The position numbers were made by a program. A stretch of DNA of 64,000 nucleotides from Mytilus californianus (taxonomy: Eukaryota): NCBI RefSeq assembly GCF_021869535.1, contig NW_026262582.1:37510001-37574000 (forward strand), in the 5' to 3' direction. This document shows positions 27,001 through 60,000 of this stretch, piece after piece. Each line of letters begins with the position of its first letter. The first letter of the stretch is position 1.

Positions 27001-30000
27001 TTCTTTTTGTAAATTCATTGAGGTATAAAAGCGTTGACCGAACTACATTTTATATGAAATTACTATAAGAAGCATTCAAAACTGATAATTACATTTTTAG
27101 CTGATCATAAAACACGATTTCTATCAGAATGGTTTTACCTGTGCACTTGATTGCATTGGAGCTCGTGTCATCATGATGTAATATTTCATTTTAAATTGAA
27201 GGTTTATTTCAGAATGACGCGAGATGGCTGGAAGCCAATCAAAATAACGTTTTACAATGAAACATACATGACATGTAATTATATAAATATAAATTTGACC
27301 ATTGCTGAAAGTAGTTTTGATATTTGTATTGGTTGTTAAAGTCAAGTGGTTTTACTGTACTTACATTGAAAATTGGTAGTCTGTACAAGCATTGGAGTAC
27401 TTGATATGATCCCATAAATTTGAGTTGTATAACTTGTTGTAGTTGTTTCATTTTCTTTGTATTTGTCTTTAAGAAGCACATACAATTTGAAAAGTTAATT
27501 AATTAAATTAAGCTTTGATTCAATCACCAACGTCACATGTTCCTTATAAGATATCTCAATACAAGAAGCGAAAGTTACTAGATGGTCATTCAAACTTTTA
27601 AGTCCAAATTAAGATGACAACGCTATGGCTAAAAAAAACCAAAAGACAAACAATTGTACACACAACACAAAATAGCAAACTAGAGACAAAGCAATATGAA
27701 CCACATCAAAAACTTCCACTTGCATCTGTGATTTTAACTTCACTATTTGGAACTATTGGTTTTAAAGCGTCCTTGTGAACAGCAACCTTCTATCAAGGAA
27801 ATCATGTTGGGAAATACTAGCTCTGGGATATTGTATCAATTGGGAGTTTTAGACTCCGTGTGCAGGCGCTGTTGGAATGTTGATACATACAAATGGAAAG
27901 TTCACAATTTTGAAGCTGAAATCATCTTATTTGTCGTAAAGTTTTGTTTTCGACATACCTTAATTGTCATTTTCTAGATGTAAATTAAGATATTAGGCAA
28001 ACTTAACTGTATCTGTTCTGATCTTTATCTAATGCTCGATGAGATAGATTCGTTCAACATAGTAACCAAACTTTGAATTGTTTATTAAGATAACATAATT
28101 TGCATAGCGGAAAGTGAAGTTAAATGATACTGCTAACTTCTTATCTTTTTTCTATGAAGTTCCTTTATGAAGTCATTCTCATAAGAATAAAGGAACAAGT
28201 CGGAAAGAAGAAAGGCACGCGTGATTTCTATGGAAATGCCGATTGTTTGTTGAAAAAACACGTTCTTCAAACGTAAGAATTATTTTGTCAATAAAAAAAT
28301 TAAGTATCATGATAAAATCAGTTGCAGAGAATTTTTTTGTTTGAATCAAAATGATTTTTAACAAAATGGGATTTATTCCTCCATAAAGCAAGATACTTGT
28401 AGCGACTTTGGCCATTCTTTATCATGAAACAATGCAATACCTACTCTTTCAATTTGTTTTTTAGTTTGGAATGGGCAAAACTTGTGTTAAGTGTAGAAAA
28501 GTCAGATGCTTAAATACTACTGCAAGATGAAAGAGTTTTAGACTGAATGCACTCAAAAAGATCTTTGAATATTTTTAGTGGCCACGTCTGATTCACGCCA
28601 CCTCTAAAATAGGTAGTTTCACAATAACTTCATAGCCCGGCTTTGACTTCTTATAAAAATGACTAAGAAAGAGGTTTCGTGGAGCACTTGAAAGACCCAG
28701 CAATACACCGTAACTAGCAATGATATTGTTTGACATTCCTCGTAATTGCTAATGTTGAATGGGAACAAGGCAAATGATCTCATGGATTATTTCCATTGGC
28801 TGTAAAACTCTTGAATTTTGCATTATCCATCCGACAATGCAAAATGTTTAGACATTCAGCCTTGTGATTTCAATAAGGGGACATTTAGTTGCATGACTCG
28901 TGTAGGGAGAGTGTCACCTCATATACAGGGTACCAATGTCTTGAATAAATTATGCAGTACAATGTAGGTTATATATGTTATTCAGTCAATAGATAAATAT
29001 ATACTCATCAAAACATTTAAAAACCATTACACGAAATAATTAAAACAGAAAGAACACTAAGTTCCCTATAAACGTACCTAATAAAGAGACGTTATATCTC
29101 GTCTCATGAAACAGTCCATCATTGCTAAATCTGCAGATATAACAACCAGTGTTTTCCTCCTGAAAATTTATTATAATCAGGTCATAGCCTCCTGCATTTC
29201 CTTGCAGTGAATATTTGGTTAGGTTCAGGTTTGGGTTCTTGTCATTATTTAAAAAGTAAATGTCATTTCCCTGTCCTGCATTGATGACATATGGTCCTAA
29301 CCATGTCGCTTCTCCTTCAGAAATGGAACATTTCAAAACAAAAGTTCTGCCTTTTTGCACTTTCACCTTGATTGTTTCATTTCCAATTCCTGCGATTGAA
29401 GATAACACAAAAATACAATGCTACATACATTTCCATTTTTAACAGCCTTTTTCTACATTTTTGTCTGTATCATTATTAACATTTTGCAACTGTTGATCTT
29501 TCAATCTTTCCGGTAACCAGTAATCCCATGACATCAATAATATAATCATTAAAGTTTGGTATTACGTATACAAGAGAGCACATTTGCTACTAAAAACAAT
29601 AGACCTCAAGTGTGCAACAGTAAACATGTAAACACCTATAGTGTCTCTTTGACACATTCCCCATTTTCATTCTCAATTTAATGATTACGTGACAGACGTC
29701 CCTATTCATAAATTATGGTTAACACTAGTACAGTGTAAAATACTCTGTTCAAATAGAATATTTGAATTGTTTGAATACACATATAGTTCAGAATTGACAC
29801 AATTGTTTTCTGAGAAAACTCCATTCAAAAAATCATCGAAAGTATGAAATAATAGTATATTCTCAGCATACTCTAAATAGATATAAGAAGATGTGGTATG
29901 AGTGCCAATGAGACAACTCTCCTTCGAAGTCATAATTTGTATAAATAAACCATTATAGGTCAAATTACGGTCAAAAGTATACAAAGAGTTTGATATACCA

Positions 30001-57000: not shown

Positions 57001-60000
57001 TATGAAAATATAAATGCATGCAATGCTTAAGTAAAGAGTTTCTTTATTCTATATTGGATCGAGATAAAGGGGGAGGGTAGAGATCACACAAAACATTTTA
57101 ACCCCACTTCATTTTTAGCCTGTTCCAGTTCAGGAGCCTCTGACCTTTGTTAGTCTTGTAGGTTTTTTAATTTTAGTTCATTTATATGTTTTAGAGTTTA
57201 GTGTGACGTCCATTTTCACTGAACTACATGTAGCTAGTACACAATTATATTTAGGGGCCAGCTTAAGACCACCTCCAGGTGCATGATTTTCTCGCTGTAT
57301 TGAAGACCCATTGGTAGCTTTATGCTGTTTTCTGCTCTTTGGTCGGGTTGTTGTCTCTTTGACATATTCCCTATTTCCATTCTCAATTTAATTTCATTCG
57401 TCGGCAAATATAATCAAATTCATAATGTTTTATTTATCAATATAAATGATATCTTTCATTGACCTGTGATGGAACCTGTTATTTAAGTTTCGATGGTTTG
57501 TTTACATGCAAATAATTTAACTGTACTTACATTGAAAATTGGTTGTCTTTATTATCATTGGAAAACTTGTTGTGATCCCTAAACTTTGAGCCGTACAATT
57601 TGTTGTCGTGGTTTCTTTTGCTCTGTCTTTCAGAAGCACATACAATTTAAAATGTTTTATTAATACATTTCGTTTTGTTTAAAAAACAAACGTCCCATGT
57701 TTATCTTGTATTTATCAATTAAATTTGCTTGACATACCTTTTAAATTGTTTAAGTCGAATGCGGTAAAGCACTAGACCTTTTTAATGTCTGTAAAAGTCT
57801 TACTGATGGGTATCCGTCTGACAATGCAAAATGTATAAATTGTCAGCCTTATCAATACAAAAATGGAAATTGAGTTGAGTGCCTAATGCAGGGATACTTT
57901 TACGTTCTATACACGGTTCAAAATATCTTATAGAAAATGTTATAGAAGTCTGTAGGTAACATGTCGTTGTCAGTTTGTTTTCGATCTATGAGTTTGACTG
58001 TCCCTCTGGTATCTTTCGTCCCTCTTTGCTAGAGGAATATATTGTTCCATTAAAATAAGTCAGATCGTGTTTGAATACGGCATACTTAAACTAACCTTCT
58101 AAATATACGTTATACTTGGTCTCATAAAAAAGTCCATCATTATTAAATCTGCAGAAATAAAAACCAATGTCTCCTTTCTGAAAATTTGTGATAATCAGTT
58201 CATAACCTCCTTTATTTTCGTGAAATACATATTTTCCTTGGTTCAGCTTTGGGTTTCTTTTTTTATCTGCAAAGTAAACTAAATTGTTTTGTACATCATT
58301 GTTGATATCTGGCCCTAACCAGGTCACACCAGCGCCAGAACTGGAACATTTGAAAACAGCAGTTGCACATTTTTGAACTTTCACATTGATTGTGTCATTT
58401 CCAATGCCTGCAATTAAAGACGATACAAATAGAATGATAAGTAAATGAATAATATTTAGTGTTTTGGTCTCTACATAATTATAAATTCTCAAGATCAACT
58501 GAAGGTTAAGCAGAAACACATTCTGATTGAAATTCGTATTATTTGTTGAAAAGTTTCTACGGCTATTGTTGATAATTCCATCCTCATCATGACGGAACAT
58601 CCTTCAATTAATCACTTGTTTCATATCAACATGACTTAAAGTGCATTTTCAACAGAATATGTTGTGTATTACTCTAATGAGACATCAATCTTACTTAATT
58701 GCAATTAAAAAAAAAATCTGTCGTCAACACAAAATTACGAAAACAAATACAAACAAAAGTCATTAAGAACAAACAAAACATCATAAATTTTAACAAGCTC
58801 ATGAACACGCTATGGGATAACATTTTTTTATAAGATTTAACTTTGTCCCCTTCGATATTTTTTTATCAAAATAAAAAAATATATGGTGTTAATGTGACAA
58901 ACGACAACCATAACTTATTAAATTAGTACAATGAAAGAGATTCTATTTAAATTAAACCGAATTCGTTTTCATTCTATATAAACACCTTTCGCAAATGTGC
59001 CTTGTAGAAAGTAGAAGTGTTTTCATTCCGAATTAATTTGAACAAAGTAAAAATATAAATATATGTCAAAATTCGCAAAGCACACATGTTAAGAATTCAA
59101 CTTACAGTATCAATAATTGATTAATCCTGTTATTATAGTCCTGTAAATTGTCTGTTATATAGGTTTGATCATTGTTGAAGGCCGTTTGGTGACATATAGT
59201 TTCTAACCTGTATTGCATTTGGTCACTGGTTGAAGATTATTTCAATTGCAATCCTATCACTTCGTCGTATTCAAAATTGTTGGTCTTTTCGATGTTTATC
59301 GTTTTTTTGCAATGGTGTTGTAAATGCTTGTCCGAGTTATGAGTTTGGATGTCCCTTTCATATCTCCTATCATTTTTCTGTTATATTTTTCGTCATTGGA
59401 TATAATTTGTGGTTATTATACAATTTACTTTCGCTGTCACTGTTGTCTCATGTTAGTGTAATATAAATATACCTGAAACCATTTTTATTTGAACTGTTAT
59501 CGCAAGCAGAGCTAGAATTGCTGACATTTTCAACCATGTTCCACCACTTTGACTGAATTAAAGAAATCAAGAAAAATTCTGGTCTCGGGAACTTCATTGA
59601 GGTATACACAAAATTCCAAAATGAAATGCAGAAACCGTTCATAAAGTATTAGAGTTGGGATTCTTATTAGATTGAATAGACAGTTGACTCTGAAAACCAA
59701 CATCGATAAATGTTCGAACTCTAACATATACATTTCAAGTTTGGGAGAATCCATAGTAGAGATAGCGATGAGTGAACAGAGACATATTTATTTTGAAAGG
59801 ATTTTATGCAAAATAATGATATTCTTTTCTAATCAAAGGGTAACAGCTCTTGATAGTGTACATAATTGTTCATCTGACACTAAAAATACGCAATACAATG
59901 TGGCATACCATCTTGTAGTTGAATTCGCATCGTATTATGACTATGGTGTGTAAAGAAGGAAACATTCTGACAGTGGAAAGTAGTGATAAAAAATAAGTTT

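What the first reader, a model, noticed from the sequence alone, without database searches (positions are those of the whole stretch)
29078..58407. Ligand-binding Ig domain has diverged far more than the signalling exon
Hand alignment: Ig exons 59/104 aa identical (57%), exon 9 66/75 (88%; 20 nt differences in 228, about half synonymous). Ig changes cluster at residues 23-28, 34-51 and 57-66, between and after the B-strand Cys and C-strand Trp (CDR1/C'C''-like surface), while the F-G region is conserved. Both exons share one duplication age, so this suggests diversifying selection on recognition, gene conversion homogenising the tail, or both.
Basis: partly seen in the sequence, partly recalled or inferred. 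Interest (0 to 1): 0.65.

Follow-up and report, generated by a model that had tools for sequence, protein, structure and literature searches.

The report
Mussel Ig receptor pair, conserved tail
Two neighbouring mussel genes encode one-Ig-domain membrane receptors whose last exon, with inhibitory-type tyrosine motifs, has been kept nearly unchanged while the rest of the protein drifted, which is an ordinary pattern for such receptor families.

Summary
The window is Mytilus californianus (not human, no N runs). It holds a tandem duplicate on the minus strand. Copy A matches LOC127718056 and copy B matches LOC127718062. Each has 9 coding exons: signal peptide, one V-set Ig domain, Thr-rich stalk, TM helix, and a tail ending in exon 9 with ITIM (LHYAEV) and ITSM (TIYTGI) motifs.

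Ig is 58/103 full codons identical (59/104 with the split codon). Exon 9 is 66/75, with 20 nt differences, about half synonymous.

The Ig exon is not the odd one out. The other exons together are 110/174 identical (Ig vs others p=0.31), whereas exon 9 differs from all of them (p about 6e-5).
- Ig: dN/dS 0.74 (CI 0.43-1.36), dS 0.38.
- Exon 9: dN/dS 0.20 (0.07-0.55), dS 0.27, close to flanking non-coding divergence.

Intron identity falls to 50-73% beside the exon 9 acceptor (67-80% past the stop), and the longest identical run is 38 nt, so I see no recent conversion. Ig differences are not clustered beyond chance. Ig loops give dN/dS 1.4-1.6, not significant.

One open point remains: across species, exon 9 lacks the A-type/B-type signature seen in the Ig, TM and exon 7 exons.

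Best reading: purifying selection on the tail and weak constraint elsewhere.

The parts
15351..32458 (-). Duplication unit A (gene copy A plus flanks)
   Evidence: Collinear self-blastn HSPs against 46748-60751
46748..60751 (-). Duplication unit B (gene copy B plus flanks)
   Evidence: The exon chain reproduces P0002 (LOC127718062, 359 aa) exactly
31414..31468 (-). Copy A exon 1: start codon and signal-peptide-like hydrophobic stretch
   Evidence: Homology to B exon 1, GT donor; 11/18 codons identical to B
29078..29389 (-). Copy A exon 2: V-set Ig domain
   Evidence: Pfam V-set 26.2 bits against cutoff 26; AG/GT; AF2 pLDDT 77.7; 95/103 identical to M. coruscus P0006
27365..27466 (-). Copy A exon 3: Thr-rich stalk, 6 nt longer than B
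   Evidence: alignment, conserved AG acceptor
26762..26890 (-). Copy A exon 4: transmembrane helix with no charged residue
26023..26071 (-). Copy A exon 5 (juxtamembrane); the NCBI model P0001 starts at a Met here
23975..24000 (-). Copy A exon 6
22854..22994 (-). Copy A exon 7 (YQN motif), with a 30-nt in-frame insertion at 22859-22888 that adds a YVN motif
   Evidence: alignment; P0001 contains the insertion; motifs
22021..22097 (-). Copy A exon 8; the Tyr of the YRN motif found in B and relatives is absent
16938..17165 (-). Copy A exon 9: ITIM LHYAEV, ITSM TIYTGI, YEN, C-terminal NTCL, stop
   Evidence: 100% identical to P0001
59473..59527 (-). Copy B exon 1
58096..58407 (-). Copy B exon 2: V-set Ig domain
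   Evidence: Pfam V-set 29.4 bits against cutoff 26; AF2 pLDDT 83.0
57531..57626 (-). Copy B exon 3: stalk
56857..56982 (-). Copy B exon 4: TM helix
55799..55847 (-). Copy B exon 5
53223..53248 (-). Copy B exon 6
52251..52361 (-). Copy B exon 7 (YQN)
51170..51246 (-). Copy B exon 8 (YRN)
49544..49771 (-). Copy B exon 9: ITIM, ITSM, YEN, stop

Best explanation
A and B are old tandem paralogs of a Mytilus-restricted family of type I membrane proteins. Each has a signal peptide, one V-set Ig domain, a Thr-rich stalk, an uncharged TM helix, and a tyrosine-motif tail. Its last exon carries an ITIM and an ITSM 24 residues apart plus an invariant C-terminal block.

Shown: since the duplication, exon 9 has been held by purifying selection on the protein (dN/dS about 0.2) while its silent sites diverged about as much as neighbouring non-coding DNA. 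All other exons, the Ig exon included, changed at close to the neutral rate (dN/dS about 0.7-0.8). Within the Ig exon the beta-strand framework is constrained (0.35-0.46) and the loops are effectively unconstrained (about 1.4-1.6, not distinguishable from 1). The contrast is therefore a conserved signalling module attached to a weakly constrained ectodomain, with no recent gene conversion.

Inferred from motifs only: ligand binding to the Ig domain leads to phosphorylation of the ITIM/ITSM tyrosines. These then recruit tandem-SH2 phosphatases (SHP-type) or SHIP and damp cell activation. The YxN motifs may bind a Grb2-type adaptor.
For: Identity and structure:
- Exon 9 of A and B are 100% identical to the M. 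californianus proteins P0001 and P0002.
- The 9-exon GT-AG chain for B reproduces P0002, and A has homologous intact exons giving a 1119-nt open CDS.
- Pfam V-set is above cutoff for both Ig exons. AF2 models have pLDDT 77.7 and 83.0 with the V-type strand order. Foldseek top hits are V domains (CRTAM, IgLON, CAR, CD8 alpha, NITR; TM 0.61-0.77). C20, W29 and C85 are invariant in 21/21 rows.

Rates:
- Exon 9: dN 0.055, dS 0.271, ratio 0.20 (CI 0.07-0.55), pN vs pS p=0.0019.
- Ig: dN 0.284, dS 0.382, ratio 0.74 (CI 0.43-1.36), p=0.33.
- Exons 1 and 3-8 pooled: 110/174 identical, ratio 0.82.
- Ig vs other exons p=0.31; other exons vs exon 9 p=6.4e-5.
- LWL85, YN00 and ML estimates agree: Ig 0.66-0.83, exon 9 0.21-0.29.

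Against conversion:
- Synonymous differences are spread over exon 9, including the invariant protein blocks (codons 29, 52, 65, 72). The longest identical run is 38 nt.
- Flanking 30-nt bins fall to 50-73% upstream and 67-80% downstream.
- Chained non-coding JC distances are 0.19-0.41, with intron 8 at 0.274 and the 3' flank at 0.320.

Within the Ig exon: strands 0.35 (CI 0.15-0.83) or 0.46; non-strand 1.61 (0.79-4.54) or 1.37 (0.66-3.74).

Motifs: ITIM and ITSM with the same 24-residue spacing occur in 5/5 tails found. The distant paralogs P0010 and P0011 (44-45% Ig identity) keep two ITIM-type motifs at the same spacing. Only 2% of shuffled tails give two such motifs.
Against: - Loop dN/dS point estimates exceed 1, so some positive selection may contribute.
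- Exon 9 shows no A-type/B-type split. It has 0 such columns and 18 single-lineage changes, against 20 and 45 in exons 2, 4 and 7 (p=0.0046).
- B's tail is less like that of its Ig-defined relative P0004 (60/75) than like A's (66/75), although the Ig exons say the opposite (78/103 vs 58/103). Constant purifying selection alone does not predict either of these last two results.
- DNA is available for only two sequences, so confidence intervals are wide.
- Non-coding distances come from local HSPs and are biased low.
- There is no expression, phosphorylation or binding evidence. The ITIM consensus alone appears in 30% of shuffled tails.
Confidence: 0.6

Rival explanations
1. Diversifying selection acts on the recognition surface. 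The BC and C-C'-C'' loops of the Ig domain are driven apart by selection for new ligand specificities, and the tail is simply conserved.
For: - Non-strand codons have dN/dS 1.61 or 1.37, against 0.35 or 0.46 for strands.
- Sites that differ between A and B are the variable sites in 19 other family members (entropy 1.79 vs 0.87, p=4e-8).
- The Ig tree shows a radiation of at least 8 lineages in Mytilus.
Against: - Whole-domain dN/dS is 0.74, and no partition differs significantly from 1 (p=0.27-0.63).
- The differences are not clustered beyond chance.
- The signal peptide, stalk and TM exons show the same divergence and ratio, which selection on recognition does not explain.
- The FG (CDR3-like) loop is conserved.
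- The A ortholog in M. coruscus keeps 95/103 Ig residues, no fewer than in the TM exon (39/42).
Confidence: 0.2
2. Exon 9 was homogenised between the tandem copies by gene conversion in the past, stopping around or before the split of M. californianus from the M. edulis group. Its A/B divergence is therefore younger than that of the rest of the gene.
For: - The quartet A, B, P0003, P0004 gives 0 A-type/B-type columns in exon 9, against 8, 9 and 3 in exons 2, 4 and 7 (p=0.0046).
- A-B tail identity (66/75) exceeds B-P0004 (60/75) although B's Ig groups with P0004 at 100/99 support.
- The exon 9 dS point estimate (0.27) is below that of the Ig exon (0.38).
Against: - The dS difference is not significant (p=0.38).
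- Flanking introns are no more alike than those beside exon 2.
- There is no long identical tract (38 nt at most), and 10 synonymous differences are spread through the exon.
- There are 0 columns that group A with B against the other species.
- A few fast, repeatedly hit sites (positions 17, 19, 40 and 58 show homoplasy) could erase an old split.
- P0003 and P0004 are automatic gene models from two different species, and their orthology in the tail is unproven.
Confidence: 0.15
3. Copy A is losing its 5' half (Ig to TM) and is expressed only as a short tail protein. On this view the Ig divergence reflects decay of one copy.
For: - The NCBI model for A (P0001, 171 aa) starts at a Met in exon 5.
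- No M. californianus protein holding A's Ig exon turned up in searches of 182-2000 aa or 56-181 aa proteins.
Against: - A's exons 1-4 are open, in frame and keep GT-AG sites.
- The Ig Cys, Trp and Cys residues are kept.
- A's Ig is 95/103 identical to M. coruscus P0006, a model that includes the signal peptide, Ig and TM exons.
- A has fewer single-lineage Ig changes (5) than B (8).
Confidence: 0.05

Closest known systems
Oyster IgSF inhibitory receptors (CgIgIT, CgIgIT2, CgSiglec-1, CgNCAM1)
   Same: They are bivalve type I IgSF membrane proteins with ITIM-bearing tails. PMC11841013 (abstract start and passages read) says oyster IgSF inhibitory receptors reduce expression of IL17, TNF and the like, and that CgNCAM1 carries two ITIMs and acts with CgSHIP2.
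   Different: CgNCAM1 has three Ig domains plus a fibronectin type 3 domain (abstract). The genes here have one V-set domain and an ITIM plus ITSM pair. I made no sequence comparison with the oyster proteins. The CgIgIT, CgIgIT2 and CgSiglec-1 papers were seen only as reference-list entries, and one look-up failed. The tail exon found relatives only in Mytilus (5 of 14 candidates).
Vertebrate PD-1-type receptors (single IgV, ITIM then ITSM)
   Same: The architecture is the same: one V-type Ig domain, stalk, uncharged TM, and an ITIM followed by an ITSM some 24-25 residues later. The PD-1 details are recalled; the SHP1/SHP2 role of ITIM/ITSM comes from the listing and abstract start of PMC8631942.
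   Different: There is no detectable sequence kinship. PD-1 is not among the 34 PDB sequences matched at E<=0.01, nor among the fold matches listed. The likeness is one of design, probably convergent.
Teleost novel immune-type receptors (NITR) and other multigene V-domain/ITIM families (KIR, LILR, Siglec, SIRP)
   Same: These are lineage-specific tandem families with diversified ectodomains and conserved inhibitory tails (recalled). NITR10 and NITR11 V domains are among the fold matches (TM 0.63-0.70).
   Different: They are vertebrate families. There is no sequence homology beyond the generic V-set fold, and the mussel family is small in the databases searched.

Membership tests
V-set immunoglobulin domain (Pfam PF07686) | Profile score at or above the curated cutoff | tested here: met
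   A scores 26.2 bits and B 29.4 bits against a cutoff of 26, so the margin is narrow
V-set immunoglobulin domain (Pfam PF07686) | B-strand Cys, C-strand Trp, F-strand Cys in a D/N-x-G-x-Y-x-C context | tested here: met
   C20, W29, G81, Y83 and C85 are invariant in 21/21 aligned rows
V-set immunoglobulin domain (Pfam PF07686) | V-type strand set with C' and C'' between C and D | tested here: met
   The AF2 models show strands at 42-46 and 49-50 between C (26-31) and D (59-64). The best fold matches are V domains. The C-C' loop (35-40) has low confidence.
ITIM/ITSM inhibitory immunoreceptor | Type I membrane protein with an extracellular Ig domain and a TM helix lacking a charged residue | tested here: met
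   Read from the exon translations. No signal-peptide or TM predictor was run.
ITIM/ITSM inhibitory immunoreceptor | Cytoplasmic ITIM [SIVL]xYxx[IVL] (consensus recalled) | tested here: met
   LHYAEV is present in 5/5 tails, and LHYLEV or LNYLEV in P0010 and P0011. Chance occurrence is 30% in shuffled tails.
ITIM/ITSM inhibitory immunoreceptor | ITSM TxYxx[VI] (consensus recalled) | tested here: met
   TIYTGI or TIYSGI is present in 5/5 tails, 24 residues after the ITIM tyrosine. Both motifs occur together in 2% of shuffles.
ITIM/ITSM inhibitory immunoreceptor | Tyrosine phosphorylation, SHP-1/SHP-2/SHIP recruitment, inhibitory effect | not testable with these tools
   Needs experiments
PD-1/CD28 family (homology) | Detectable sequence or closest-fold kinship to PD-1 | tested here: not met
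   PD-1 is absent from the 34 PDB sequence matches and from the listed fold matches
Recent gene-conversion tract over exon 9 | Raised identity extending into flanking introns, or long identical runs | tested here: not met
   Flanking bins are 50-73% upstream and 67-80% downstream. The longest identical run is 38 nt.
Recent gene-conversion tract over exon 9 | Synonymous divergence lower than in the rest of the gene | tested here: inconclusive
   0.27 (CI 0.13-0.50) vs 0.38 (CI 0.22-0.60), p=0.38
Recent gene-conversion tract over exon 9 | Exon tree discordant with the rest of the gene | tested here: inconclusive
   0 vs 20 A/B-type columns (p=0.0046), but also 0 columns grouping A with B. Protein data only, and orthology is uncertain.
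Diversifying (positive) selection on the Ig domain | dN/dS significantly above 1 in the domain or in a pre-defined part of it | tested here: not met
   Domain 0.74; loops 1.37-1.61 with intervals that include 1
Diversifying (positive) selection on the Ig domain | Site-model support across many coding sequences | not testable with these tools
   No DNA of other family members could be reached; the collections open here hold no mollusc genomes

The most novel reading that the evidence does not exclude
Mytilus carries a lineage-specific, tandemly expanding family of PD-1-like checkpoint receptors (one IgV, then ITIM, then ITSM). In this reading the loop surface of the V domain is under diversifying selection. 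The signalling exon is kept uniform among paralogs both by purifying selection and by episodic gene conversion. That would be an invertebrate counterpart of the variable-ectodomain, conserved-tail logic of vertebrate inhibitory receptor clusters.
Probability: 0.15. Interest if true: 0.6.

Novelty: new member of a known kind. Interest (0 to 1): 0.3.

Why it matters
The two genes are annotated only as uncharacterized proteins. Showing that they form a Mytilus-restricted family of single-V-domain receptors with a strictly conserved ITIM/ITSM exon gives mussel immunology a concrete candidate inhibitory receptor. It can be tested by hemocyte expression, phosphorylation and SHP/SHIP binding.

For the scan, the main lesson is negative. 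An 88% versus 57% identity contrast between exons looks striking. Here it is explained by ordinary differences in constraint, not by demonstrated positive selection or recent conversion.

Tried and rejected
- Global MAFFT alignment of whole introns put large gaps next to the exons and gave misleading flank identities. I replaced it with anchored semi-global alignments and chained local HSPs.
- My first guess of A's exon 7 coordinates was wrong and gave nonsense. I corrected it from the alignment and used the corrected coordinates from then on.
- Pfam found nothing for the tail, stalk or exon 7 peptides.
- The ESM Atlas search with exon 9 gave only unrelated, low-recognition hits.
- The PDB sequence search gave only weak generic V-domain matches such as TIM-4, pIgR, TIM-3 and CD8 alpha.
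- Literature searches for ITIM or ITSM receptors in Mytilus or molluscs and on the M. californianus genome turned up no paper on this family. They cover only CC-licensed PMC and bioRxiv. The CgIgIT paper is not held.
- I considered an exon 9 tree across five tails, but only about three columns are parsimony-informative and they conflict, so I built no tree.
- Complex prediction was not used, because no mussel SHP/SHIP sequence was in hand.
- Genome contigs was not used, because it holds only bacteria and archaea.
- The joined spliced protein was neither searched nor folded. Every database search and fold used single exons.

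
Full report
**Source and rules**

The window has no N runs and about 30% G+C. Its exon 9 translations are 100% identical to two Mytilus californianus proteins, LOC127718056 (P0001, 171 aa) and LOC127718062 (P0002, 359 aa). It is therefore mussel DNA, not human.

A joined spliced model was neither searched nor folded. No DNA of other mussels could be reached with the collections open here, so all codon-level tests rest on the two copies in the window.

**Anatomy**

Self-comparison shows a collinear direct duplication on the minus strand. 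Unit A is about 15351-32458 and unit B about 46748-60751. They are separated by roughly 14 kb that contains a decayed reverse-transcriptase fragment.

Mapping P0002 onto the window gives nine coding exons for B, all with GT-AG sites. A has homologous exons with conserved splice sites and an open 1119-nt reading frame.

The exon plan is:
- E1: signal-peptide-like stretch
- E2: Ig domain (312 nt in both copies)
- E3: Thr-rich stalk
- E4: TM helix without a charged residue
- E5-E8: short cytoplasmic exons
- E9: 75 codons plus the stop

Evidence that E2 encodes a V-set Ig domain:
- Both Ig exons pass the Pfam V-set cutoff narrowly (26.2 and 29.4 bits against 26).
- AlphaFold models, built from a 21-row family alignment, have pLDDT 77.7 and 83.0 and the V-type strand order.
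- The best PDB fold matches are V domains such as CRTAM, IgLON, CAR, CD8 alpha and NITR (TM 0.61-0.77).

The tail carries LHYAEV and TIYTGI, 24 residues apart. These fit the recalled ITIM and ITSM consensus patterns. It also carries three YxN motifs.

**The observation**

- Ig: 58/103 full codons identical (59/104 with the split Gly codon), 75.1% nt identity.
- Exon 9: 66/75 identical, with 20 nt differences made up of 10 synonymous-only codons and 9 replacement codons.
- The contrast between the two exons is significant (p=5.7e-6).

Two corrections apply. Copy A's exon 9 (16938-17165) lies outside the coordinates given. The clustering of Ig changes is also no greater than chance in this pair (permutation P>=0.27 at windows of 10-30 residues; runs P=0.57). 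The variable stretches do coincide with the BC loop and the C-C'-C'' region. They are also the most variable columns in 19 other family members (entropy 1.79 vs 0.87, p=4e-8).

**Which exon is the outlier?**

| Exon | Residues identical |
|---|---|
| E1 | 11/18 |
| E3 | 18/31 |
| E4 | 24/41 |
| E5 | 10/15 |
| E6 | 5/8 |
| E7 | 27/36 |
| E8 | 15/25 |
| E1, E3-E8 pooled | 110/174 (63%) |

The pooled figure is not different from the Ig exon (p=0.31) but is different from exon 9 (p=6.4e-5). The exception is therefore the conserved tail exon, not the diverged Ig exon.

**Selection (Nei-Gojobori with bootstrap)**

| Region | dN | dS (95% CI) | dN/dS (95% CI) | pN vs pS |
|---|---|---|---|---|
| Ig exon | 0.284 | 0.382 (0.22-0.60) | 0.74 (0.43-1.36) | p=0.33 |
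| Exon 9 | 0.055 | 0.271 (0.13-0.50) | 0.20 (0.07-0.55) | p=0.0019 |

Three other estimators (LWL85, YN00, ML) agree, giving 0.66-0.83 for the Ig exon and 0.21-0.29 for exon 9.

Splitting the Ig exon by the models' secondary structure is a partition that does not depend on where the differences lie.
- Strands: 0.35 (CI 0.15-0.83) or 0.46 (CI 0.21-1.03).
- Non-strand residues: 1.61 (0.79-4.54) or 1.37 (0.66-3.74).

The framework is constrained. The loops evolve at or above the neutral rate, but not demonstrably above it.

That partition was chosen after seeing the differences and is not significant (p=0.46).

**Conversion**

I used anchored alignments in 30-nt bins moving away from each exon.

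| Flank | Identity in the first bins (%) |
|---|---|
| Exon 9 upstream | 73, 63, 60, 50, 70, 63 |
| Exon 9 downstream | 80, 73, 73, 70, 67, 70 |
| Exon 2 upstream | 77, 57, 77, 63, 73, 57 |
| Exon 2 downstream | 63, 60, 60, 70, 70, 63 |

Intron identity does not track exon identity.

Three other results point the same way:
- Chained local alignments give non-coding JC distances of 0.19-0.41. Intron 8 is at 0.274 and the 3' flank at 0.320, which matches the exon 9 dS. These local estimates are biased low.
- Exon 9 dS is not significantly below Ig dS (p=0.38).
- The synonymous differences are spread through the exon, including the protein-invariant blocks, and the longest identical run is 38 nt.

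A recent conversion tract is therefore not supported. The collinear duplication fits one duplication age.

**Cross-species evidence (protein only)**

The exon 9 search found 5 proteins at E<=0.001 among 14 candidates, all from Mytilus. The Ig searches found:
- 8 proteins among 410 candidates of 182-2000 aa
- 158 representatives at E<=0.001, most of them giant multi-Ig proteins
- 3 proteins among 14 candidates of 56-181 aa

In the Ig tree, B groups with M. trossulus and M. galloprovincialis proteins (support 100/99). A groups with M. coruscus P0006 (support 92/91). Both sit within an unresolved radiation of at least eight lineages. The duplication therefore predates speciation within Mytilus.

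A's Ig is 95/103 identical to P0006. That is no less conserved than the TM exon (39/42), which speaks against unusually fast Ig change.

One result does not fit simple constant constraint. I compared the quartet A, B, P0003 (M. edulis, A-like) and P0004 (M. trossulus, B-like).
- Columns supporting the A-type/B-type split number 8, 9 and 3 in exons 2, 4 and 7. In exon 9 there are none.
- Single-lineage changes number 28, 11 and 6 in exons 2, 4 and 7, and 18 in exon 9 (Fisher p=0.0046).
- Not counted: columns with gaps, columns with three or more states, and the two conflicting columns. Exons 5 and 6 were left out because P0004 lacks them.
- B's tail is 60/75 identical to P0004 but 66/75 identical to A.

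This could reflect three things:
- old concerted evolution of exon 9 that ended around speciation
- saturation at the few free tail sites (positions 17, 19, 40 and 58 show repeated hits)
- chimeric or non-orthologous automatic gene models

No column groups A with B against the other species, so post-speciation homogenisation in M. californianus is not indicated.

**Mechanism**

Shown:
- the domain plan
- purifying selection on exon 9
- conservation of the two tyrosine motifs and their spacing in 5/5 tails, and in the distant paralogs P0010 and P0011 as two ITIM-type motifs
- two such motifs arise in only 2% of shuffled tails

Inferred from established knowledge of ITIM/ITSM receptors: the listing and abstract start of PMC8631942 were seen, and the rest is recalled. 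Phosphorylated motifs would recruit SHP-type phosphatases or SHIP and damp activation.

Oysters have IgSF ITIM receptors with such roles. For PMC11841013 I read the abstract start and passages. The CgIgIT, CgIgIT2 and CgSiglec-1 papers were seen only as reference-list entries in it.

**Comparison and novelty**

The design resembles PD-1 (recalled). No sequence or closest-fold kinship to PD-1 was found.

I file the genes as a new, uncharacterised member of a known kind: bivalve and metazoan IgSF receptors with inhibitory-type tails. The rate contrast itself is ordinary.

My literature searches found no paper on this Mytilus family (CC-licensed PMC and bioRxiv only).

**Verdict**

- Observation: partly confirmed.
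- Best explanation: purifying selection on the signalling exon with weak constraint elsewhere (confidence 0.6).
- Unproven alternatives: loop-directed diversifying selection (0.2) and old conversion of exon 9 (0.15).
- Interest: 0.3.

Noticed in passing
window 22859-22888 (-), and exon 8 at 22021-22097 (-): Copy A's exon 7 has a 30-nt in-frame insertion (10 codons) that creates a YVN motif. A's exon 8 lacks the tyrosine of the YRN/YIN motif that B and the four other tails keep. A has therefore lost one YxN and gained another.
   Followed up: partly
window 26023-31468 (-): NCBI's model for copy A (P0001) starts at a Met in exon 5. Exons 1-4 of A are intact, but no M. californianus protein containing A's Ig exon was found in either length range searched.
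   Followed up: partly
window 845-1357 (-) and 2244-2660 (-): There are two further Ig-like open frames, 66/102 aa identical to each other. They have only sub-threshold Pfam Ig matches and no real similarity to the A/B Ig domain, so they probably belong to another duplicated Ig gene.
   Followed up: partly
window 36969-39064 (+): ORFs between the two copies look like a decayed retrotransposon. The first has an RVT_1 match of 22.3 bits, below the cutoff of 29.6.
   Followed up: partly
window 34189-34331, 40116-40297, 44692-44910, 57165-57392: A dispersed repeat of about 140-230 bp occurs in four copies at 72-79% identity. One copy sits inside intron 3 of copy B.
   Followed up: no
window 53931-54943; 7142-7298; 61273-61650: Three repeats were seen: a 515-nt direct repeat (85% identity) inside B's intron 5, a perfect 22-bp x 7.1 tandem array, and a 122-125-bp x 3 array.
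   Followed up: no
window 16938-17009 and 49544-49615 (-): The last 24 residues of exon 9 are identical in A and B despite three synonymous differences. The protein ends in NTCL in 4 of 5 tails (P0005 ends NTCLQ), which fits a class I PDZ-ligand pattern (pattern recalled, not tested).
   Followed up: no
window 21942-23974 (-) vs 51083-53222 (-): The introns around exons 7 and 8 are more alike between the copies (mostly 77-90% per 30-nt bin; JC 0.225-0.272) than those around exon 2 (57-83%; JC 0.28-0.37). This is regional heterogeneity of unknown cause.
   Followed up: partly
P0006 (M. coruscus protein), compared with window exon 8: The M. coruscus model is A-like in exons 1, 2 and 4 (89-93% identity) but its exon 8 matches B (23/25) rather than A (13/25). 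Either A's exon 8 changed quickly on its own lineage (5 single-lineage changes) or the model is chimeric.
   Followed up: no
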